From Escherichia coli (lineage in GTDB: Bacteria; Pseudomonadota; Gammaproteobacteria; Enterobacterales; Enterobacteriaceae), in the NCBI RefSeq assembly GCF_013315695.1, contig NZ_CP054353.1: 64,000 bases of DNA, one strand, 5' to 3'. The position numbers were made by a program, and so were the translations under genes. Each line of letters starts with the position of its first letter. The first letter of the stretch is position 1. The notes under the pieces are model-generated. The model was given only the letters and a program-made list of their open reading frames with translations. It was not told the origin of the DNA and did no database searches. This document shows, one piece after another, positions 24,771-64,000 of this stretch.

Positions 24771-26030
24771 ATGAATCTTACCGAATTAAAGAATACGCCG
24801 GTTTCTGAGCTGATCACTCTCGGCGAAAATATGGGGCTGGAAAACCTGGCTCGTATGCGTAAGCAGGACATTATTTTTGCCATCCTGAAGCAGCACGCAA
24901 AGAGTGGCGAAGATATCTTTGGTGATGGCGTACTGGAGATATTGCAGGATGGATTTGGTTTCCTCCGTTCCGCAGACAGCTCCTACCTCGCCGGTCCTGA
25001 TGACATCTACGTTTCCCCTAGCCAAATCCGCCGTTTCAACCTCCGCACTGGTGATACCATCTCTGGTAAGATTCGCCCGCCGAAAGAAGGTGAACGCTAT
25101 TTTGCGCTGCTGAAAGTTAACGAAGTTAACTTCGACAAACCTGAAAACGCCCGCAACAAAATCCTCTTTGAGAACTTAACCCCGCTGCACGCAAACTCTC
25201 GTCTGCGTATGGAACGTGGTAACGGTTCTACGGAAGATTTAACCGCTCGCGTACTGGATCTGGCATCACCTATCGGTCGTGGTCAGCGTGGTCTGATTGT
25301 GGCACCGCCGAAAGCCGGTAAAACCATGCTGCTGCAGAACATTGCTCAGAGCATTGCTTACAACCACCCGGATTGCGTACTGATGGTTCTGCTGATCGAC
25401 GAACGTCCGGAAGAAGTAACCGAGATGCAGCGTCTGGTTAAAGGTGAAGTTGTTGCTTCTACCTTTGACGAACCCGCATCTCGCCACGTTCAGGTTGCGG
25501 AAATGGTGATCGAGAAGGCGAAACGCCTGGTTGAGCACAAGAAAGACGTTATCATTCTGCTCGACTCCATCACTCGTCTGGCGCGCGCTTACAACACCGT
25601 TGTTCCGGCGTCAGGTAAAGTGTTGACCGGTGGTGTGGACGCCAACGCCCTGCATCGTCCGAAACGCTTCTTCGGTGCGGCGCGTAACGTGGAAGAGGGC
25701 GGCAGCCTGACCATTATCGCGACGGCGCTTATCGATACCGGTTCTAAAATGGACGAAGTTATCTACGAAGAGTTTAAAGGTACAGGCAACATGGAACTGC
25801 ACCTCTCTCGTAAGATCGCTGAAAAACGCGTCTTCCCGGCTATCGACTACAACCGTTCCGGTACCCGTAAAGAAGAGCTGCTCACGACTCAGGAAGAACT
25901 GCAGAAAATGTGGATCCTGCGCAAAATCATTCACCCGATGGGCGAAATCGATGCAATGGAATTCCTCATTAATAAACTGGCAATGACCAAGACCAATGAC
26001 GATTTCTTCGAAATGATGAAACGTTCATAA
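24771..26030 (+). CDS. rho: Transcription termination factor Rho
   Basis: ORF 24699-26030; start at the ATG giving [40 protein letters not shown]... (419 aa). Confidence 0.97.
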
Positions 26031-26045
26031 ATTTGTCTTATGCCA

Positions 26046-26080
26046 AAAACGCCACGTGTTTACGTGGCGTTTTGCTTTTA
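26046..26080 (+). terminator. Intrinsic terminator after rho
   Basis: AACGCCACGT GTTT ACGTGGCGTT hairpin followed by a T-rich tract. Confidence 0.8.
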
Positions 26081-26269
26081 TATCTGTAATCTTAATGCCG
26101 CGCTGGCGATGCTAGGAAAATTCCTGGAATTTGCTGGTGTGTTATGCAATTTGCATATCAAATGGTTAATTTTTGCACAGGACTGGTGGGTTCGGAACGG
26201 ACTTTCCCTTCTGAATAAAGGTCTTCGTGGTTATACTTCTGCTAATAATTTTCTCTGAGAGCATGCATT

Positions 26270-27373
26270 GTGAATTTACTGACAGTGAGTACTGATCTCA
26301 TCAGTATTTTTTTATTCACGACACTGTTTCTGTTTTTTGCCCGTAAGGTGGCAAAAAAAGTCGGTTTAGTGGATAAACCAAACTTCCGCAAACGTCACCA
26401 GGGATTGATACCTCTCGTTGGGGGGATTTCGGTTTACGCAGGGATTTGCTTCACGTTCGGAATTGTCGATTACTATATTCCGCATGCATCTCTCTATCTC
26501 GCTTGTGCCGGTGTGCTTGTTTTCATTGGCGCGCTGGATGACCGTTTTGATATCAGCGTAAAAATCCGTGCCACCATACAGGCCGCTGTTGGCATTGTTA
26601 TGATGGTGTTCGGCAAACTTTATCTCAGTAGCCTGGGTTATATCTTTGGCTCCTGGGAGATGGTGCTCGGACCGTTTGGTTACTTCCTGACGCTATTTGC
26701 CGTCTGGGCGGCAATTAATGCGTTCAACATGGTTGATGGCATTGATGGCTTGCTGGGCGGGTTGTCCTGCGTCTCGTTTGCAGCAATCGGTATGATTTTG
26801 TGGTTCGACGGGCAAACCAGTCTCGCAATCTGGTGCTTTGCGATGATCGCCGCCATCCTGCCATACATCATGCTTAACCTTGGTATCCTGGGTCGCCGCT
26901 ACAAAGTCTTTATGGGGGATGCGGGCAGTACGCTGATTGGTTTTACCGTTATCTGGATCCTGCTCGAAACGACCCAGGGCAAAACTCATCCCATCAGCCC
27001 GGTTACCGCTTTGTGGATAATCGCCATTCCACTAATGGATATGGTGGCGATTATGTACCGTCGCCTGCGTAAAGGCATGAGCCCATTCTCTCCTGACCGT
27101 CAGCATATTCACCATTTGATCATGCGTGCCGGGTTTACTTCCCGCCAGGCGTTTGTGCTGATTACCCTTGCCGCAGCACTGCTCGCTTCCATTGGCGTGC
27201 TGGCAGAATATTCTCATTTTGTCCCGGAGTGGGTCATGCTGGTGCTCTTTTTGCTAGCATTCTTCCTCTATGGATATTGCATCAAGCGTGCCTGGAAAGT
27301 TGCTCGCTTTATTAAGCGCGTAAAACGCAGACTGCGTAGAAATCGTGGTGGCAGCCCCAATTTAACCAAATAA
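26270..27373 (+). CDS. wecA: UDP-GlcNAc:undecaprenyl-phosphate GlcNAc-1-phosphate transferase
   Basis: 367-aa polytopic membrane ORF starting at GTG (MNLLTVSTDLISIF...). Confidence 0.93.
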   Translation: MNLLTVSTDLISIFLFTTLFLFFARKVAKKVGLVDKPNFRKRHQGLIPLVGGISVYAGICFTFGIVDYYIPHASLYLACAGVLVFIGALDDRFDISVKIRATIQAAVGIVMMVFGKLYLSSLGYIFGSWEMVLGPFGYFLTLFAVWAAINAFNMVDGIDGLLGGLSCVSFAAIGMILWFDGQTSLAIWCFAMIAAILPYIMLNLGILGRRYKVFMGDAGSTLIGFTVIWILLETTQGKTHPISPVTALWIIAIPLMDMVAIMYRRLRKGMSPFSPDRQHIHHLIMRAGFTSRQAFVLITLAAALLASIGVLAEYSHFVPEWVMLVLFLLAFFLYGYCIKRAWKVARFIKRVKRRLRRNRGGSPNLTK

Positions 27374-42648: not shown

Positions 42649-44304
42649 TTAATCAGATTTAATCTGCGCGCGCGGCGGATATTTTTTCAGGATCTCCATA
42701 TACGCGTGCATTTCGGTCTGTAGCGGTACACCCATTGGGATATGGCGCACGCCGATAGAGTCGCTTTCCTGCGGATCGGTGTACAGGTTAAACACCGACG
42801 ATCCCGCCGTTTGCATTACTGTGCCGGTGAATCCACCCTGATACCCGCTCTGGGTATACGCGTACGGTTGCTGGATCAGGACGTGATACTTGAACTCATC
42901 CATACGCACAGCAGAAAGTTTACCGTTGAGGAAGTAGTGCTCGGCCTTACGGTTAGACTGACCATTTGTTCCCAGGAAGAAAGATGTCTGGTCCACACCA
43001 TCGATAAAGGTGGTTTTCGGTACTAAATTCGCTACTTTCGCCCCAGGATGCCCCGCCAGATCCAGCGCCGTAGGGAAGAGATCCGCCAGATCGACAATGC
43101 CGTCAGATTTACGCGGTTGGATCATGCCTTTCCAGTAAACGAAGGTTGGCACACGAACGCCGCCTTCCCATGTAGAACCTTTCGCACCGCGGAACGGCGT
43201 GCGACCGTGCGGCGGTACTTCCGCTTCCGGTCCGTTATCGGAGGTAAAGACGATTAGCGTGTTATCCAACTGACCATTTTTCTCCAGTGCTTTATACAGA
43301 TTGGCGAAGATATCGTTCATCTCCACCATGCAGTCGCCGTAAGAGGTGCGCGCCGGAGAGCTACCCGCATATTTCGCATTTGGGTAGTTATCGAAGTGAC
43401 AGCCGCGAGTGCCGTAGTAGAGGAAGAAAGGCTTATCGCTCTTCGCCATCTTGTCGAGGAACTTAACGCCATATTCCATCCAGCGTTGATCCAGGTCTTC
43501 CATATATTTCGGCGTAATGTCGGCAATGGCTTCCTGTTCACCGCCGCGCACGGCATGAACGTCATCTTTGCTGAATGGCAGTTTTTGGATGTATTCAGAA
43601 CGATCCGGGCTCAGGGCGACTTCCGGGTTGACGTGAACATCACGCCATTCGGTATACATATCGGATACCGAGTTAAAGCCGCGGAAATCATCAAAGCCAA
43701 CGTTCTGCGGCTGCGACTCTTTGTTTTCCCCCATATGCCATTTCCCGATGGCCTGAGTGACGTAGCCCTGATCGTGCAGCAACTGCGGCAGAGTGGTTAA
43801 CCCTTGCAGACCGCCCGGTTGCCCGTACATTGGCGGCATCAGAATGCCGTGGTGGATGGAGTATTGTCCGGTAAGAATCGTGGCGCGGGTTGGGGAAGAA
43901 CTCGGTTGAGAATACGCCGAAGTTAAAATCAGCCCCTGGCTGGCAACGGCGTCGATATCTGGTGTAGGGTTACCCACCGCCACGCCGCCGCCGTTAAAGC
44001 CAACATCCATCCAGCCCACATCATCCAGCAAGAAAACAACCACGTTCGGTTTCTTACCGGTTTTTTTCTCAAGTTCTGCCAGCTTCTGCTGGGTTTCTTT
44101 GTCTTGTGCAGGATGCTGCATCACCGGCATCATGTTGTCGGCAATAGTGGTCGCCGGTTTAACCAGATACTGGTTTGGGTGATCGTATCCGGCAAAGCCT
44201 TTGCGTGCGGTGGCGGTTGACGGGGTATCTGCTGCGTTGGCCATGAGTGGAAGAGCGGCGGCGACAGCTACAACAAGAAGTTTGGGTGAAAACGAAAATT
44301 CCAT
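42649..44304 (-). CDS. aslA: Arylsulfatase, Ser-type (SxPxR formylglycine motif), with signal peptide
   Basis: 551-aa ORF; SSPTR sulfatase signature; N-terminal signal peptide. Confidence 0.93.
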
Positions 44305-44712
44305 GCAAAATGCTCCGGTTTCATGTCGTCAAAATGTTGACGTAATTAAGCATTGATAATTGAGATCCCTCTCCCTGACAGGATGATTGCATAAATAATA
44401 GTGATGAAAATAAATTATTTATTTATCCAGAAAATGAATTGGAAAATCAGGAGAGCGTTTTCAATCCTACCTCTGGCGCAGGTGATATGTAAGGCGGTGA
44501 TGTTATATCGCGTTGATTATTGATGCTGTTTTTAGTTTTAACGGCAATTAATATATATGTTATTAATTGAATGAATTTTATTATTCATTATATATATGTG
44601 TAGAATCGTGCGCAGGAGAAATATTCACTCAGGAAGTTATTACTCAGGAAGCAAAGAGGATTACAGAATTATCTCATAACAAGTGTTAAGGGATGTTATT
44701 TCCCGGTTCTCT

Positions 44713-44722
44713 GTGGCATAAT
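44713..44722 (+). promoter_or_regulatory. Extended -10 element (TGg CATAAT) of the glmZ promoter
   Basis: TG at 44714-44715 and CATAAT at 44717-44722, 6 nt upstream of the glmZ 5-prime end; overlaps a degenerate sigma54-like TGGCA. Confidence 0.55.
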
Positions 44723-44728
44723 AAACGA

Positions 44729-44935
44729 GTAGATGCTCATTCCATCTCTTATGTTCGCCTTAGTGCCTCATAAACTCCGGAATGACGCAGAGCCGTTTAC
44801 GGTGCTTATCGTCCACTGACAGATGTCGCTTATGCCTCATCAGACACCATGGACACAACGTTGAGTGAAGCACCCACTTGTTGTCATACAGACCTGTTTT
44901 AACGCCTGCTCCGTAATAAGAGCAGGCGTTTTTTT
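44729..44935 (+). ncRNA. glmZ: Small regulatory RNA GlmZ
   Basis: GTAGATGCTCATTCCATCTCTTATGTTCGCCTTAGTGCCTCATAAACTCCGGAATGACGC... ending in the CGCCTGCTCCGTAATAAGAGCAGGCG T7 terminator; about 207 nt. Confidence 0.9.
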
Positions 44936-45533
44936 ATGACCGGATAAAGAACTGGTTACGTCGCTCCTGGGTCATCGGTTGCGCGTTTAACACTCTTACA
45001 AGAGAGCCTACCGTGACGATGGGAAGAAACGGATTCTCTTCTATTCCGCATAGATCGCGCCCGCAACGAGCAGCGGTATCTTCAACCAGCTCTTCTAACT
45101 CGACTGCGTCGCTCACCAAATCCAGATCATCGTCCAGTATATCATCGGCTTTCAGTGGCAGTGGGTAATCGATATAGCCGTTTCCTTGCAAGGTATCCCA
45201 CACCGCACGAATCACCCATGTATCTACGGTGTAGGTGTCAAATTCGCGGGCGAACTGGCAAATGGAGCGTCCCCGACGTTTATCTGCCATGATTCGGTAC
45301 TTCTTGAGGATCTTGATTTTTTCCTGCTTCGCCGCAGCTATCAGATATCCAATAAAAAGTGTTAACCAGAAGATGAATGTATTGCCCGTACGTACAAAGG
45401 AAATAATCAACCAACTTACGCCAGCCAGAGCGGCACATATCAACAAGATTAAAAAGAGCGTTGCCCGAAAAGGAGTAATTTCATGCGATGGCAAGCGGAA
45501 AAGATAGCGGGACGGCGTGCGCAATTTTGACAT
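44934..45533 (-). CDS. Hypothetical two-TM membrane protein with acidic C-terminal domain (199 aa), function unknown
   Basis: ORF with ATG start at 45533; two hydrophobic helices (about residues 24-46 and 52-68); weak RBS; stop overlaps the glmZ terminator T-run; start lies 6 nt past the hemY terminator. Confidence 0.45.
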   Translation of the reverse strand: MSKLRTPSRYLFRLPSHEITPFRATLFLILLICAALAGVSWLIISFVRTGNTFIFWLTLFIGYLIAAAKQEKIKILKKYRIMADKRRGRSICQFAREFDTYTVDTWVIRAVWDTLQGNGYIDYPLPLKADDILDDDLDLVSDAVELEELVEDTAARCGRDLCGIEENPFLPIVTVGSLVRVLNAQPMTQERRNQFFIRS

Positions 45534-59094: not shown

Positions 59095-59997
59095 TTACTT
59101 AGCGCACTTCTTCACATCAATATTCCAGTCAGCACCAGACGCAACCTGATGTTTCTGCGCAAAATTATCCATATTCAGCGCCACGGAAACATTCAATAAG
59201 CTGTTCAGATACACCATCGGCTGGCCTTCCGGCACATCGCCGAAGCTTGCGACATATGGCATTTTCCCTGCGTATTTTTGCTGGGAACCTTCGGAAATGG
59301 TCACACACAACGTGTCGTTGAGTTTGATTCCTGCCTGATTCAGCAACTCGTCGCTGATATTGCTCCAGACGTTGCCGTACTGAATATCGAGAATTGGGAT
59401 ATTGCCCTTCACTTCACCTTTTGTTGCTTTTGCTTTCTGATAAGAAAGTTCGACAACTTTTGCAGGAAGCTCTGGCCCCACCTGTTCGAACGTGATCACT
59501 CCGGAAGCCAGACGCGCACCGGTGTAGGCATATACATCGCGACCATGGAAGGTATATGACTTTTCAGAACCTTTCAGGCGGTTAGCTTTTTCGTCGATTT
59601 CCCGGACGCTATCAATACCCAGAGTTTGTGCCACCAAAGTGAGCGTACCGTTATCTGGTGAAACGAAGTATTGACCGTTTTTGGTTTTCAGCACTACCGA
59701 TTTACGGTCAGTGCCTACGCCCGGATCGACCACGCTAACCAACACCGAACCTTGCGGCCAGTAACTGGCAGTCTGATACAGGCGATAAGCGCCTTCCCAG
59801 ATGTTATACGGTGGAATTTCGTGTGTTAAATCAAAGATTTTAAGATTATGGTCAACGCCGAATGCGACCCCTTTCATCGCCGAGACGGCACCATCTTTCA
59901 GGCTAAAATCAGTTTGTAAAATCAAAGCGTTATCCGCATAGGCGGATGATGATCCCAGACACGTTAATAAAAATAACGTTGCGAGCGTTTTTTTCAT
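59095..59997 (-). CDS. Secreted SAM hydroxide adenosyltransferase-family protein (DUF62; fluorinase/chlorinase-type fold) with N-terminal Sec signal peptide
   Basis: 300-aa ORF, ATG with AAGGGA RBS; signal peptide MKKTLATLFLLTCLGSSSAYA; blocks LTHEIPPYNIWEGA, VDPGVGTDRKSVV, SPDNGTLT, IQYGNVWSNI, QPMVYLNS align with SalL/FlA-type proteins. Confidence 0.8.
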   Translation of the reverse strand: MKKTLATLFLLTCLGSSSAYADNALILQTDFSLKDGAVSAMKGVAFGVDHNLKIFDLTHEIPPYNIWEGAYRLYQTASYWPQGSVLVSVVDPGVGTDRKSVVLKTKNGQYFVSPDNGTLTLVAQTLGIDSVREIDEKANRLKGSEKSYTFHGRDVYAYTGARLASGVITFEQVGPELPAKVVELSYQKAKATKGEVKGNIPILDIQYGNVWSNISDELLNQAGIKLNDTLCVTISEGSQQKYAGKMPYVASFGDVPEGQPMVYLNSLLNVSVALNMDNFAQKHQVASGADWNIDVKKCAK

Positions 59998-60508
59998 TTT
60001 TGTTTCCCTTCATTTATCTGATGATTTTCCAGCTGTGTAGCCAGTCCCAGTTTGTCTGGCCTCCTCGAGTGTACAATGCTTAACCTTTCCGCTCGACGGA
60101 AATCATGGTGACAAAAGGATAGCGTTGCCACGGGATTGCCCCGCCTTTCATATACATATGTGAAATTGTGCCATCAAGATAAAGCAGCTGCTCAACGTTC
60201 AGTTTCGCTTTGGCATAGCAGGCAAAATCATAAAAATTTGTCGCCTGCTGGCTCAACAAAAACACGGCGTTCCCTTGTTTATTAATCCCTACACCGTTAC
60301 GAATTTTACGCGAGGCGACGTTGGGATGAATACGCGGATTAATTACACCGTTTTCCATCAACAATGGCCCTGACTGCACCGCAAACTGAATCTCTTTACT
60401 GGTTTTAAAGGCATCCAGACGAACGATGCCGACTTTATCTCCCGCGACATAAAACACGCCGCCAGGACGAATAAAGAAATTCCCTTCACCTGAAGCGAAA
60501 TTTAACGC

Positions 60509-60520
60509 CACCTTCTGCTG
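60509..60520. repeat. IS4 target-site duplication, left copy (CACCTTCTGCTG)
   Basis: Identical 12-mer immediately flanks both IS4 ends. Confidence 0.9.
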
Positions 60521-61946
60521 TAATGCCAGTCAGTTAAGCAACTGACTGGCTCTTTTTCGGGGCTGTGGGGTATTTCCAGGGCCTCTCCTTTACCACTCTC
60601 GGGAAGGCCCTTTCCCTTCTTGTCGGTAATTTCACAAGTTGTCCCATACTTGCAAGATCGCGCATCAGCTCCGGTATACGTCCCGGTGAAGCGCCCTGCA
60701 ATGTCATCAGCATTCTCATCACCATTCCGCATGATTCTGAGAAACTCAGTTGATTCGGCCAGTAACCTTTCAGATGTTCCGCCATTTTAATCATCTGATA
60801 TCTCACCAGATTATAAGCCAGTAAGACACCCCACAGCTCTTGCTCCACAAGCTCCGGTTTTTTACTTCTCAGCGTCAGCCTGCTCAGTTGCATCGTCTGT
60901 TTTATCTCCCTGTATCCCAGTTCGATTTCCCAGCGATGACTGTACAGATCCGCCATTTCTCCTCCGGGGAAGCGCATGGCGTCCGTCATCGACGTCAGCA
61001 GATGGCAGACTTTTCCTTTGCGCGTCACGGTCAGCAGGCGGGCTGTCACTTCATTTCCCAGTCCCGGCCACTTTTTTCGTGCCTGCGGGCTGGTTTTCAG
61101 CTTCACCAGATGATCGCCTTTACCCAGTTTTCTGATCTCTTCATATTGCGCTCCCTTTCTGAGAGGTATCATCCAGTGGCGGTGTTCTCCCGCCAGGCTC
61201 CAGGCATTTAACAGTCCCAGTGAGTAATAACCTTTATCCATTAACGTCAGAGTGTTATCGCCGGTTTGTTCTATAAGTTGCTCAGCAAGCTCATTTTCGC
61301 TGTTCTTCATCGTGCCGAAGGCTGCAGCCGTCAGCAGATGGCTGGTCAGTTCCATCTGGCAGACCATTTTGACCTGCGGGTAGAGCGCCGGGTTCCCGGC
61401 ATGTGTCTGGCGGGGGAAGGCTGCATCGTTCTCTGGTGTATCCGGTGTGCGCCAGAACACACCATCGATGGCCAGCAGGGTCAGGCCGCACCAGTGCGGA
61501 TGCGGCGTGGCGTTATGCCAGAGCTGCGCTGTTTTCGTGAACACGCGGCGGACAGCCTCACTTCCCAGGCGCTGGCGGGCCTGAATAACGGCACTGGGGG
61601 CAACGAAGGGGCGATTGCCCGGCAGCATGATGTCCAGGCGATTCACAATCTGGTGAAGAGGTTCTTTACGCTCAAGCGCCATGCCAACAATACACCAGAC
61701 CATCATTTCGAGGGGAAGACGGCGCTTGCGTAGCGTTACAGTACCTGATTCGGCAAGGCAACGAGAGATGAGTTCGGGGTCGAGGTAATCCCCCAGAGAA
61801 GTCAGTGGGTTACGCAGAGAATCGTAACGGGATACCAGATCAAGAGCCTGTCCAATGTGCATAAAAAAATCCGGAAACAAGTGAGCGTTTCCGGATTCTT
61901 ACACAGCCACTGGATCGGTCAACTGATCCTTAACTGATCGGCATTA
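60521..61946 (-). mobile_element. Insertion sequence IS4, complete (1426 bp)
   Basis: Terminal inverted repeats TAATGCCAGTCAGTTAAG... and ...CCTTAACTGATCGGCATTA; single transposase ORF; flanked by a perfect 12-bp direct repeat. Confidence 0.95.
60534..61862 (-). CDS. insG: IS4 transposase (DDE family)
   Basis: ORF 60534-61880; ATG at 61862 gives [20 protein letters not shown]... (442 aa). Confidence 0.95.
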
Positions 61947-61958
61947 CACCTTCTGCTG
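61947..61958. repeat. IS4 target-site duplication, right copy (CACCTTCTGCTG)
   Basis: Identical 12-mer immediately flanks both IS4 ends. Confidence 0.9.
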
Positions 61959-62651
61959 ACCGTTTTCGATGTACAAACCGAGCGGCGCATAGCTTTCATC
62001 ATAGATGCCGCCGTTCATCGCCATCTGCACCTGACCCTGACTATTCATATCCGCCAGCAGAGCATGTAACGTTCCCCACGCTTCGCCATTGGCTTTTTGC
62101 CAGTACATTTTCACCCGCTCTGTTTGAGGATTAACGGTATACGCCTGTACGGTCAGCGTCGGATCTGAGAGTGCGCAATCTTCAGCGGCAACAGCAAACA
62201 AGGGAAGTAAGGTGAGGGTGAGAAAAATCCGTTTGAGATTCAAGGTGATCATTCCTTTACCAATGAGTAGCCGATGCGCCATTATAGGTCCTGGATGTGG
62301 GATTTTTTTATCCTGTTAGCGACCTTGACGAGTACCAAAAAGCGCGAAGTTCAACTATTGTTCTGTGGTGTTCTGTTGCGTGTTGACGGCAAAATTTTGC
62401 TGGCGTAACATGCGCGCACGATCACTCTAAGAGGACATTCGCCTTGGACACACCCAGTAGATACTGGCTCACTATCCTGTCATCCAGGATCAACTCCTAA
62501 GGCTATCCCTTTTTGCTGATAGCCTTAGCGGTTGTCAGCGACCTCAATTTTTCCCGTCGCGCTGAGTCAGGCTGTTTAATGGTCTGAAACCCAATTTGTT
62601 TCTGTGTGCCCACCGAACTGTCCGATATTTTAAGCATTGGGAGTCCCGGTC

Positions 62652-63602
62652 ATGCTGAGCGCATTTCAACTGGAAAATAACCGACTGACCCGGCTGGAAG
62701 TCGAAGAGTCACAACCCCTTGTAAATGCAGTATGGATTGATCTTGTCGAACCGGACGACGACGAGCGACTGCGCGTACAATCTGAACTTGGTCAGAGCCT
62801 GGCAACCCGCCCGGAACTGGAAGACATCGAAGCATCGGCACGTTTCTTTGAAGACGATGACGGCCTGCATATTCACTCCTTCTTCTTCTTTGAAGATGCG
62901 GAAGATCACGCCGGTAACTCCACTGTGGCATTTACCATCCGTGATGGTCGTCTGTTTACTTTGCGTGAGCGTGAACTGCCCGCTTTTCGTCTGTATCGTA
63001 TGCGTGCCCGTAGCCAGTCGATGGTAGACGGTAACGCCTACGAGCTGCTGTTGGATCTGTTCGAAACCAAAATCGAACAGCTGGCAGATGAAATTGAAAA
63101 TATCTATAGCGACTTGGAGCAGTTGAGCCGGGTGATTATGGAAGGGCATCAGGGCGATGAGTATGACGAAGCGCTCTCTACGCTGGCGGAACTGGAAGAT
63201 ATCGGCTGGAAAGTTCGCCTGTGTCTGATGGATACCCAGCGTGCGCTCAACTTCCTGGTACGCAAGGCGCGTTTACCGGGTGGGCAACTGGAGCAGGCGC
63301 GTGAAATCCTGCGAGATATCGAATCCCTGCTGCCGCATAACGAATCCCTGTTCCAGAAGGTGAACTTCCTGATGCAGGCGGCGATGGGCTTTATCAATAT
63401 CGAGCAGAACCGCATCATCAAAATCTTCTCGGTGGTATCCGTGGTGTTCCTGCCGCCAACGCTGGTTGCTTCCAGCTACGGGATGAACTTTGAGTTTATG
63501 CCAGAACTGAAGTGGAGTTTCGGCTACCCAGGCGCGATTATCTTTATGATCCTCGCGGGCCTGGCACCGTATCTGTACTTTAAGCGGAAGAACTGGTTGT
63601 AA
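62652..63602 (+). CDS. corA: Magnesium/cobalt transport protein CorA
   Basis: ORF 62637-63602; start at the ATG giving [20 protein letters not shown]...; C-terminal YGMNF motif; 316 aa. Confidence 0.96.
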
Positions 63603-63626
63603 CTTTACGATGTCGCTGTGAGTAAG

Positions 63627-64000
63627 TTAGTGTGCTGACAGCGACATTTTAGCCGAGGGAATCGCAGATAACATAATTGTTGTGAATAATATCCATGCTA
63701 CGTTGAGTTGGACGCTTAATGAATCACATCTCACCCCTTCAATTACTGCCGAGATAATAGAAAAAAGTGTCAAACCCAATGAAATCAATACAAAATAGAT
63801 TGCCTTACATCCAGTATCTCTTATTCTTTTAGCTCCGATATTGATATTCGCATACGTATTAGTGATGACCAGAATGAAACTCAAAGCCAGGTTGATATCA
63901 TTCAAAGTTATTAATATTGTCCATGATGTTAATGTGTAGATTATAAACTGCAAACGTGATAAATGCTCAAGCCTGGATGGGTATAATATATTTCTAATAG
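63627..64000 (-). CDS. Small hydrophobic membrane protein (yigF-like position), probably 5-prime truncated by the window end
   Basis: AT-rich ORF open to the right edge of the window (no in-frame stop upstream of the reported TTG at 63953). Confidence 0.4.
   Translation of the reverse strand, partial: IRNILYPSRLEHLSRLQFIIYTLTSWTILITLNDINLALSFILVITNTYANINIGAKRIRDTGCKAIYFVLISLGLTLFSIISAVIEGVRCDSLSVQLNVAWILFTTIMLSAIPSAKMSLSAH

What the first reader, a model, noticed from the sequence alone, without database searches (positions are those of the whole stretch)
63603..64000. AT-rich segment after corA with a hydrophobic ORF running off the window edge
Base composition changes sharply after the corA stop, and the minus strand carries an ORF for a small very hydrophobic protein with no in-frame stop before the window ends. 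This is consistent with small membrane proteins known downstream of corA in E. coli, but cannot be completed here.
Basis: seen in the sequence. Interest (0 to 1): 0.2.

Follow-up and report, generated by a model that had tools for sequence, protein, structure and literature searches.

The report
Divergent yigG-like membrane gene after corA
The AT-rich stretch after corA carries a real but unstudied gene for a small four-helix inner-membrane protein, a distant relative of E. coli YigG, sitting in a gene cassette that differs between strains; this is ordinary accessory-genome content, not a new kind of system.

Summary
GC falls from 0.52 in corA to 0.36 after its stop codon. The minus strand is stop-free from 63998 down to a TAA at 63629-63627.

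The window matches E. coli MSB1_4I (NZ_LR898874.1) exactly over 59501-64000. That record shows an ATG five codons past the window edge and an in-frame stop nine codons further up. The complete ORF is 128 aa.

The gene looks real. It is intact in seven alleles of about 93% nucleotide identity, with dN/dS of 0.12-0.15. Salmonella has a same-length orthologue (48% identity) at the same locus.

The protein is a distant YigG homologue (24-30% identity, collinear, shared motif IN..(K/Q)R(I/L)RD(S/T)G). It has no similarity to YigF, which is corA's neighbour in K-12. It scores below the YigG NCBIfam and Pfam DUF805 cut-offs. AlphaFold predicts a four-helix bundle (pLDDT 83).

RefSeq does not annotate it in the source genome. 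GenBank holds the exact protein as a hypothetical protein (EFK18716.1).

The corA-rarD interval is a cassette hotspot:
- yigF-yigG, as in K-12: at least 2962 of 5426 genomes.
- This ORF plus a divergent 99-aa gene: 1429 genomes.
- A DUF3289/DUF943 toxin-immunity pair, as in UTI89.

Function is unknown and interest is low.

The parts
62652..63602 (+). corA (magnesium/cobalt transporter), the conserved gene whose stop codon marks the left boundary of the variable AT-rich cassette
   Evidence: Annotated as corA, WP_000947159.1, in the identical records. Homology among the three interval haplotypes breaks immediately after the corA TAA.
63603..64000 (.). In-window part of the AT-rich corA-rarD cassette. 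The full cassette is 961 nt in the source genome and runs to window-equivalent 64563.
   Evidence: GC 0.357 against 0.523 in corA. The interval is present at >=80% coverage in 1429 of 5426 complete E. coli genomes and is replaced by other cassettes in the rest.
63609..63652 (+). Stem-loop (11-bp stem GAUGUCGCUGU/ACAGCGACAUC, positions 63609-63648) followed by UUUU. Candidate intrinsic terminator of corA. It overlaps the last seven codons and the stop of the minus-strand ORF.
   Evidence: RNA fold gives -22.6 kcal/mol, z = -4.1, with 0 of 200 shuffles folding as well. The opposite strand folds more weakly, at -15.1 kcal/mol. The same hairpin follows the corA' fragment in O157. The consensus terminator scan did not flag it because the loop exceeds 8 nt, so its function is inferred.
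63627..64000 (-). 3' 374 nt of a 387-nt gene (128 codons plus stop) for a YigG-like small inner-membrane protein. The stop TAA is at 63629-63627. The ATG lies 13 nt beyond the window, at window-equivalent 64013-64011.
   Evidence: Open frame and extension in identical genomes. Intact in 7 alleles with dN/dS 0.12-0.15. Homology to YigG. Salmonella orthologue at the same locus. AlphaFold2 model with pLDDT 83 and four long helices.

Best explanation
The segment is the corA-proximal part of an AT-rich accessory two-gene cassette. In this E. coli lineage the cassette fills the corA-rarD interval in place of the K-12 yigF-yigG pair.

Its minus strand encodes a genuine 128-aa protein. The protein is a fast-evolving, locus-bound member of the YigG family, which is itself a sub-threshold offshoot of the DUF805/YhaH-like small membrane proteins.

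Inferred architecture:
- A short N-terminal amphipathic helix.
- Four transmembrane helices (about 20-37, 42-66, 72-92 and 99-117).
- N-terminus and C-terminus in the cytoplasm, by the positive-inside rule.
- The family's one strongly conserved motif, IN-x2-(K/Q)R(I/L)RD(S/T)G, in the cytoplasmic loop after helix 2.
- A conserved E-x3-C in the periplasmic loop after helix 3.

The gene converges on corA and shares corA's terminator hairpin. It is transcribed divergently from a second small membrane-protein gene (99 aa) that lies beyond the window.

By analogy with the K-12 cassette, it is probably kept largely silent by H-NS. The K-12 cassette is a promoter island with H-NS-repressed intragenic promoters and an extended protein occupancy domain.

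The most likely role is as an accessory envelope protein that alters cell-surface properties. This rests on the only phenotype reported for any family member, Salmonella yigG, whose deletion reduced attachment and chlorine tolerance.

Shown: gene reality, family relationship, locus polymorphism. Inferred: topology, silencing, physiological role.
For: Gene reality:
- The complete ORF has an ATG start and an upstream in-frame stop in the identical source genome.
- No frameshift or stop occurs in 7 alleles at about 93% nucleotide identity. They differ from the window allele by 16-18 synonymous and 8-9 non-synonymous changes, giving dN/dS 0.12-0.15.
- A same-length Salmonella orthologue (126 aa, 48% identity) occupies the same position, while the flanking CorA, YigI and RarD are 97.5%, 96.8% and 90.5% identical.
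- A stop-free run this long arises in 0.6% of shuffles.
- AlphaFold2 on the 12-sequence family alignment gives pLDDT 83.1 and pTM 0.76, with four long helices.

Family:
- BLASTP against K-12 YigG gives E 3e-5, and NF008474 matches at E 2.9e-6 over residues 12-120.
- The end-to-end alignment is collinear, with invariant S19, R20, T53, Y54, I57, N58, R63, E92 and C96.
- A joint profile finds only 34 proteins among 1.84 billion representatives.
- Every relative whose context was read lies between rarD and corA.

Cassette and hotspot.

Silencing analogy: PMC3661553, PMC7229825 and bioRxiv 10.1101/2020.01.29.924811.

Phenotype of Salmonella yigG: PMC3579871.
Against: - RefSeq/PGAP annotates no CDS here in the source genome or in most others. 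It annotates only a 92-aa TTG-start version in a few.
- There is no Shine-Dalgarno sequence upstream of the ATG in any allele.
- 2 of 7 alleles have ATA in place of ATG, and some strains carry IS insertions in or next to the gene. The gene is therefore dispensable and decaying in part of the population.
- No expression data were available.
- Scores against curated families are all below cut-off: NF008474 27 bits against 217, and DUF805 14.2 bits against 25.7.
- hhalign against YhaH/YhaI aligned only the motif, at probability 0.8%.
- The attachment phenotype comes from the K-12-type YigG (82% identical to K-12 YigG), which is only about 25% identical to this protein.
- H-NS binding was never measured on this cassette.
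Confidence: 0.8

Rival explanations
1. The ORF is not a functional gene. It would be a chance or decaying open frame in AT-rich, xenogeneically silenced spacer DNA, which is why NCBI's pipeline does not call it.
For: - No CDS is annotated in RefSeq for most genomes.
- There is no Shine-Dalgarno sequence.
- The start codon is ATA in 2 of 7 alleles.
- IS1 insertions and truncated versions exist.
- Long open frames arise in 0.6% of shuffles.
Against: - dN/dS is 0.12-0.15 with dS about 0.21-0.24.
- The frame and length are kept in Salmonella at 48% amino-acid identity.
- Motifs are shared with YigG.
- The AlphaFold model from the family alignment is confident.
- Other gene callers and GenBank do call it: EFK18716.1, seen on 182 contigs.
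Confidence: 0.1
2. It is the orthologue of YigF (DUF2628), the gene that lies directly downstream of corA on the minus strand in E. coli K-12.
For: It has the same position, strand and size class as K-12 yigF (126 aa), immediately after corA.
Against: - There is no BLASTP alignment to YigF at E <= 100.
- There is no DUF2628 hit, whereas YigF hits it at 3.7e-10.
- DNA homology with K-12 ends at the corA stop codon.
Confidence: 0.01
3. It is part of an inter-bacterial competition or immunity-type module. The small membrane proteins at this hotspot would be orphan protective (immunity-like) factors under diversifying or balancing selection, not housekeeping envelope proteins.
For: - The same interval carries a DUF3289 (colicin M-like toxin) and DUF943 (immunity) pair in UTI89. 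In O157 that pair sits alongside this ORF, with a duplicated 147-nt corA 3' end (PMC11148199).
- The cassette proteins diverge far faster than the flanks: 48-59% against 90-97% between E. coli and Salmonella.
- Both cassette types are found in both species.
- dS in the ORF (0.22) exceeds that of corA (0.11) and yigI (0.03).
Against: - No toxin gene accompanies this cassette in the window lineage.
- There is no hit to PADLOC or to DUF943.
- dN/dS within E. coli is low (0.13), not elevated.
- Co-location at a recombination hotspot does not imply a functional link.
Confidence: 0.07

Closest known systems
YigG of E. coli K-12 (b3818; NCBIfam NF008474/PRK11371), inner membrane protein of unknown function
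   Same: - Similar length (128 aa against 126 aa) and an end-to-end collinear alignment.
- Shared motif IN-x2-(K/Q)R(I/L)RD(S/T)G and E-x3-C.
- Same corA-rarD interval and same strand.
- AT-rich context, hydrophobic, multi-helix.
   Different: - Only 24-30% identical, and 27 bits against a 217-bit equivalog cut-off.
- It abuts corA instead of rarD.
- Its partner is a divergently transcribed 99-aa gene instead of a co-directional yigF.
Pfam DUF805 (PF05656; E. coli YhaH/YhaI, COG3152)
   Same: - Small multi-span membrane proteins with a basic motif after the second helix (RRLHDT in YhaH, KRIRDTG here).
- A basic SR/RR patch before helix 1.
- DUF805 is the only Pfam family hit by this protein and by YigG.
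- Outlying hits of the YigG/ORF profile (P0086, P0088) pass the DUF805 cut-off.
   Different: - Scores are sub-threshold: 14.2 bits against 25.7.
- hhalign against YhaH/YhaI aligns 15 columns only, at probability 0.8%.
- This protein has a fourth helix and lacks the G-W-rich third-helix signature of YhaH/YhaI.
Salmonella enterica hypothetical protein (cluster of P0072/P0121, 126-157 aa) between corA and rarD
   Same: It is the orthologous cassette: rarD, then a 98-aa gene on the opposite strand, then this gene, then corA. Identity is 48% over 122 aa, the length is the same, and the interval has GC 0.34.
   Different: It is strongly diverged relative to the flanking genes. It is also uncharacterised.
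DUF3289/DUF943 (colicin M-like toxin and immunity pair; Geller et al. 2024, PMC11148199)
   Same: It occupies the same corA-rarD hotspot in UTI89. In O157:H7 it lies next to this ORF.
   Different: There is no sequence relationship. The pair is absent from the window lineage.

Membership tests
YigG (NCBIfam NF008474 equivalog) | Whole-protein score at or above the curated cut-off (217 bits) | tested here: not met
   27.4 bits, E 2.9e-6, over residues 12-120 of the protein and positions 19-133 of the 138-position model. K-12 YigG scores 255.6 bits.
YigG (broad family, homology) | Significant full-length collinear similarity to YigG proteins, with shared conserved residues | tested here: met
   BLASTP E 3e-5. 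MAFFT alignment of 11 sequences shows invariant S19, R20, T53, Y54, I57, N58, R63, E92, C96, F110. A joint profile retrieves both subgroups and intermediates in 1.84e9 proteins.
YigG (broad family, homology) | Location in the corA-rarD interval of Enterobacteriaceae | tested here: met
   Every context examined, for this ORF, its Salmonella orthologue and the YigG-like proteins of Buttiauxella/Pseudescherichia and others, lies between rarD and corA.
Pfam DUF805 (PF05656) | Score at or above the gathering threshold (25.7 bits) | tested here: not met
   14.2 bits, E 0.062. Close relatives score 14-20 bits. Only distant profile hits P0086 (27.0 bits) and P0088 (31.4 bits) pass.
Pfam DUF805 (PF05656) | Profile-profile similarity to bona fide members (YhaH, YhaI) | tested here: inconclusive
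   hhalign of A5 against a two-sequence YhaH/YhaI alignment gives probability 0.8%, E 0.073, and only the RxRD/RLHD motif aligned. The template alignment was very thin. 14 of 19 family members hit DUF805 at E <= 0.1.
YigF / DUF2628 (PF10947) | Sequence similarity to YigF or to the DUF2628 model | tested here: not met
   No BLASTP alignment at E <= 100. No DUF2628 hit, whereas YigF hits at 3.7e-10.
Known anti-phage defence or T6SS immunity families (PADLOC models; DUF943) | Match to a curated model | tested here: not met
   No PADLOC hit at E <= 1. No DUF943 hit in Pfam. PHROGs gave only noise-level hits, E 0.026.
H-NS-silenced horizontally acquired island | H-NS occupancy and low transcription | not testable with these tools
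   Only the composition (GC 0.32-0.36) and literature on the K-12 cassette are available.

The most novel reading that the evidence does not exclude
The corA-rarD interval would be a long-lived, trans-species polymorphic cassette site. At least three alternative modules are exchanged there by recombination in the corA 3' end: yigF-yigG, this YigG-like gene with its 99-aa partner, and a colicin M-like toxin/immunity pair. On this reading, the fast-evolving YigG-family membrane proteins are protective or immunity-like factors against envelope-targeting toxins or phages, maintained by balancing selection, and not neutral accessory genes.
Probability: 0.07. Interest if true: 0.55.

Novelty: new member of a known kind. 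Interest (0 to 1): 0.18.

Why it matters
The practical value is modest.

- A conserved 128-aa membrane-protein gene under purifying selection is missing from the RefSeq annotation of the source genome. It went unannotated or appeared only as a truncated 92-aa call in all the carrier genomes whose annotation was inspected; about 1400 complete E. coli genomes hold the cassette.
- The protein links the orphan YigG family to a second, very divergent subgroup found in both E. coli and Salmonella.
- The corA-rarD interval emerges as a cassette-swapping site. It also hosts a validated toxin-immunity pair, which makes it a reasonable place to look for the function of YigG-like proteins.

None of this is surprising to a specialist in enterobacterial accessory genomes.

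Tried and rejected
- **YigF identity:** rejected.
- **First AlphaFold run:** on the 11-sequence alignment A3 it gave pLDDT 56 and was not used. The second run, on A5, gave pLDDT 83.
- **DUF805 link:** hhalign against YhaH/YhaI aligned only the motif.
- **Other libraries:** PADLOC, PHROGs and Rfam gave nothing.
- **Species representatives:** the GTDB scan returned only four E. coli-like loci. Three of these are on contigs labelled as Clostridium, Alistipes and Collinsella MAGs, probably contamination.
- **The 99-aa partner gene:** it could not be tied to DUF805 or YigF by BLASTP or Pfam, although one source labels it 'YhaH (DUF805 family)'.
- **Promoter scan:** 8 sigma-70-like sites were found against 5.5 expected, so no promoter can be assigned.
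- **Terminator scan:** it did not flag the corA hairpin because of its long loop. The hairpin rests on folding alone.

Full report
**Observation**

The window ends with corA (62652-63602, + strand), which is annotated as corA in identical public records. GC is 0.523 in corA and 0.357 in 63603-64000. Only 0.3% of all 398-nt windows in the 64 kb are this AT-rich.

On the minus strand, the frame read from 63998 is open for 123 codons, down to TAA at 63629-63627. The other two minus frames are full of stops. The product is hydrophobic, with GRAVY +0.80. Both parts of the observation are correct.

**Extending the sequence**

Megablast against 5426 complete E. coli genomes found NZ_LR898874.1 (strain MSB1_4I, human rectal swab). 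It matches window 61700-64000 at 100%, including an IS4 insertion in yigE. A direct string comparison shows identity over window 59501-64000.

In that record, and in strain MS 21-1, the frame continues for only five more codons to an ATG. A TAA lies in frame nine codons further upstream. The gene is therefore 128 codons, and its start lies 13 nt beyond the window.

**Is it a gene?**

RefSeq annotates nothing between corA and a + strand 99-aa hypothetical protein. A few genomes carry a truncated 92-aa TTG-start call. The sequence evidence nevertheless favours a real gene:

- Seven alleles from diverse strains (O157:H7, O111, environmental and animal isolates) are 93.0-93.8% identical in DNA to the window allele. 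None has an indel or a stop.
- They differ from the window allele by 16-18 synonymous and 8-9 non-synonymous changes, giving dN/dS 0.12-0.15.
- A stop-free run of at least 128 codons arises in 0.6% of dinucleotide shuffles of the interval.
- The exact protein is in GenBank as EFK18716.1, a hypothetical protein of E. coli MS 21-1, and was seen on 182 contigs.
- Salmonella enterica carries a 126-aa orthologue (48% identity) in the same position, next to an orthologue of the 99-aa gene (59% identity). The flanking CorA, YigI and RarD are 97.5%, 96.8% and 90.5% identical.

Some points count against it. No allele has a Shine-Dalgarno sequence. Two of seven alleles have ATA instead of ATG. Some strains carry IS insertions. 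The gene is dispensable and is decaying in part of the population.

**What family?**

There is no similarity to K-12 YigF. Evidence for a relationship to K-12 YigG is as follows:

- BLASTP gives 30% identity over 82 residues, E 3e-5.
- The YigG NCBIfam model matches residues 12-120 at E 2.9e-6. The score is only 27 bits against a 217-bit cut-off.
- A multiple alignment with YigG homologues from Escherichia species is collinear end to end. It shares a motif IN-x2-(K/Q)R(I/L)RD(S/T)G after the second helix and an E-x3-C after the third.
- A profile of that alignment, searched against 1.84 billion representative proteins, found only 34 hits at E <= 1e-3. These include intermediates from Salmonella, Buttiauxella/Pseudescherichia and unnamed enterobacteria.
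- Every relative whose context I read lies between rarD and corA.

The family is thus tiny, confined to Enterobacteriaceae, bound to this locus and fast-evolving.

Pfam's only hit is DUF805, below threshold at 14 bits against 25.7. YigG itself scores 17 bits. Two outlying profile hits pass the DUF805 cut-off. hhalign against YhaH/YhaI aligns only the motif. I treat DUF805 membership as plausible but unproven.

**Structure**

AlphaFold2 on the 12-sequence family alignment gave pLDDT 83 and pTM 0.76. The model has a short N-terminal helix and four long helices at 20-37, 42-66, 72-92 and 99-117. PDB searches returned nothing specific.

The positive-inside rule places the N-terminus, the KRIRDTG loop and the C-terminus in the cytoplasm. 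This topology is inference.

**Surroundings**

An 11-bp stem-loop followed by UUUU lies at 63609-63652. It folds at -22.6 kcal/mol with z = -4.1, and it is the likely corA terminator. It overlaps the last seven codons and the stop of the ORF, so the two convergent genes share it.

DNA homology between haplotypes stops exactly at the corA stop codon, and each haplotype brings its own hairpin.

The corA-rarD interval has several haplotypes:

- **K-12 type (yigF-yigG):** at least 80% coverage in 2962 genomes, of which about 550 have a 79%-identical variant.
- **Window type:** 1429 genomes. Only 5 are at least 99% identical to the window allele, and 1420 fall in the 90-95% band.
- **UTI89 type:** DUF943 plus DUF3289/YPO3983. 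Published work identifies this as a colicin M-like toxin and its immunity protein (PMC11148199).
- **O157:H7:** it has the toxin pair and the window-type cassette in tandem, separated by a 147-nt duplicate of the corA 3' end. This points to recombination in corA as the means of cassette exchange.

Salmonella LT2 'yigG' is reported as 82% identical to K-12 YigG and absent from Enteritidis (PMC3579871). Other serovars carry the window-type orthologue. Both cassette types therefore appear to occur in both species.

Between the window lineage and O157, dS differs by gene:

| Region | dS |
|---|---|
| ORF | 0.22 |
| rarD | 0.14 |
| corA | 0.11 |
| yigI | 0.03 |
| 99-aa gene | 0.016 |

The spacer between the ORF and the 99-aa gene is only 77% identical.

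**Mechanism**

No member of the family has a known biochemical function. The available evidence on relatives is limited:

- The K-12 cassette is a 'promoter island' (PMC3661553).
- It contains H-NS-repressed intragenic promoters (PMC7229825).
- It is covered by an extended protein occupancy domain with low transcription.
- Salmonella yigG deletion reduced attachment and chlorine tolerance.

By analogy, I take this gene to encode an accessory four-helix inner-membrane protein. It is probably H-NS-silenced under laboratory conditions and probably affects envelope or surface properties.

The alternative is that the YigG-like proteins are immunity-like factors at a toxin-immunity hotspot. The evidence does not exclude this, but it has no direct support: there are no PADLOC or DUF943 hits, no toxin gene in this lineage, and dN/dS is low.

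**Verdict**

The ORF is an under-annotated, divergent member of the YigG family in a strain-variable AT-rich cassette. It is ordinary accessory-genome content and of low interest.

Noticed in passing
window 60080-62282 (IS4 transposase ORF 60534-61880, minus strand): An IS4 element is inserted in yigE (phosphodiester glycosidase family). It splits yigE into a C-terminal piece (about 60080-60520) and an N-terminal piece (61947-62282). This junction identified strain MSB1_4I as the only complete genome that matches exactly.
   Followed up: partly
L011 5520-5819 (window-equivalent 64219-64518, + strand, beyond the window): This is the partner gene of the cassette: a 99-aa, two-helix hydrophobic protein (WP_001330510.1), transcribed divergently from the ORF. 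It is conserved in Salmonella at 59% identity. One source labels it 'YhaH (DUF805 family)', but BLASTP and Pfam give no support.
   Followed up: partly
L010 4328-5997 (E. coli O157:H7 OK1): In O157 and O111-type genomes, a DUF943 plus DUF3289 (colicin M-like toxin/immunity) pair lies between the full corA and a 147-nt duplicate of the corA 3' end (139 of 147 identical). The YigG-like ORF follows the duplicate. This looks like a footprint of cassette insertion by recombination in corA.
   Followed up: partly
L007 708 and L008 711 (start codon of the ORF in strains EC052 and CKJ_1000_3.1): The ATG start is ATA in 2 of 7 alleles, while the rest of the frame stays intact. O157-type alleles also have a minimal ATG-TAA start-stop just upstream of the start. 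The frequency across all carrier genomes is unknown.
   Followed up: no
window 62444-62500, + strand: An 18-codon TTG-start ORF sits upstream of corA. It corresponds to the annotated small protein YsgD.
   Followed up: no
window 59095-59997, minus strand: A SAM hydrolase/SAM-dependent halogenase family gene lies between uvrD and yigE in this lineage and in O157. It is absent from K-12. This is another strain-variable insertion near the finding.
   Followed up: no
window 8367-9060, 25913-26416, 44180-44951: Three other segments have GC <= 0.40 in 398-nt windows. The one at 44305-44933 is the intergenic region upstream of an arylsulfatase-like gene.
   Followed up: no
L019, L020, L022 (GTDB species-representative MAGs labelled Clostridium, Alistipes, Collinsella): Short contigs in these MAGs encode the ORF at 92-93% identity to the E. 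coli protein. This is most likely E. coli contamination of the bins.
   Followed up: no
window 63627-63953: the ORF listing reported this ORF as a complete 108-aa TTG-start ORF, although the frame is open to the window edge. The listed start is an artefact of the window boundary and not the real start.
   Followed up: yes
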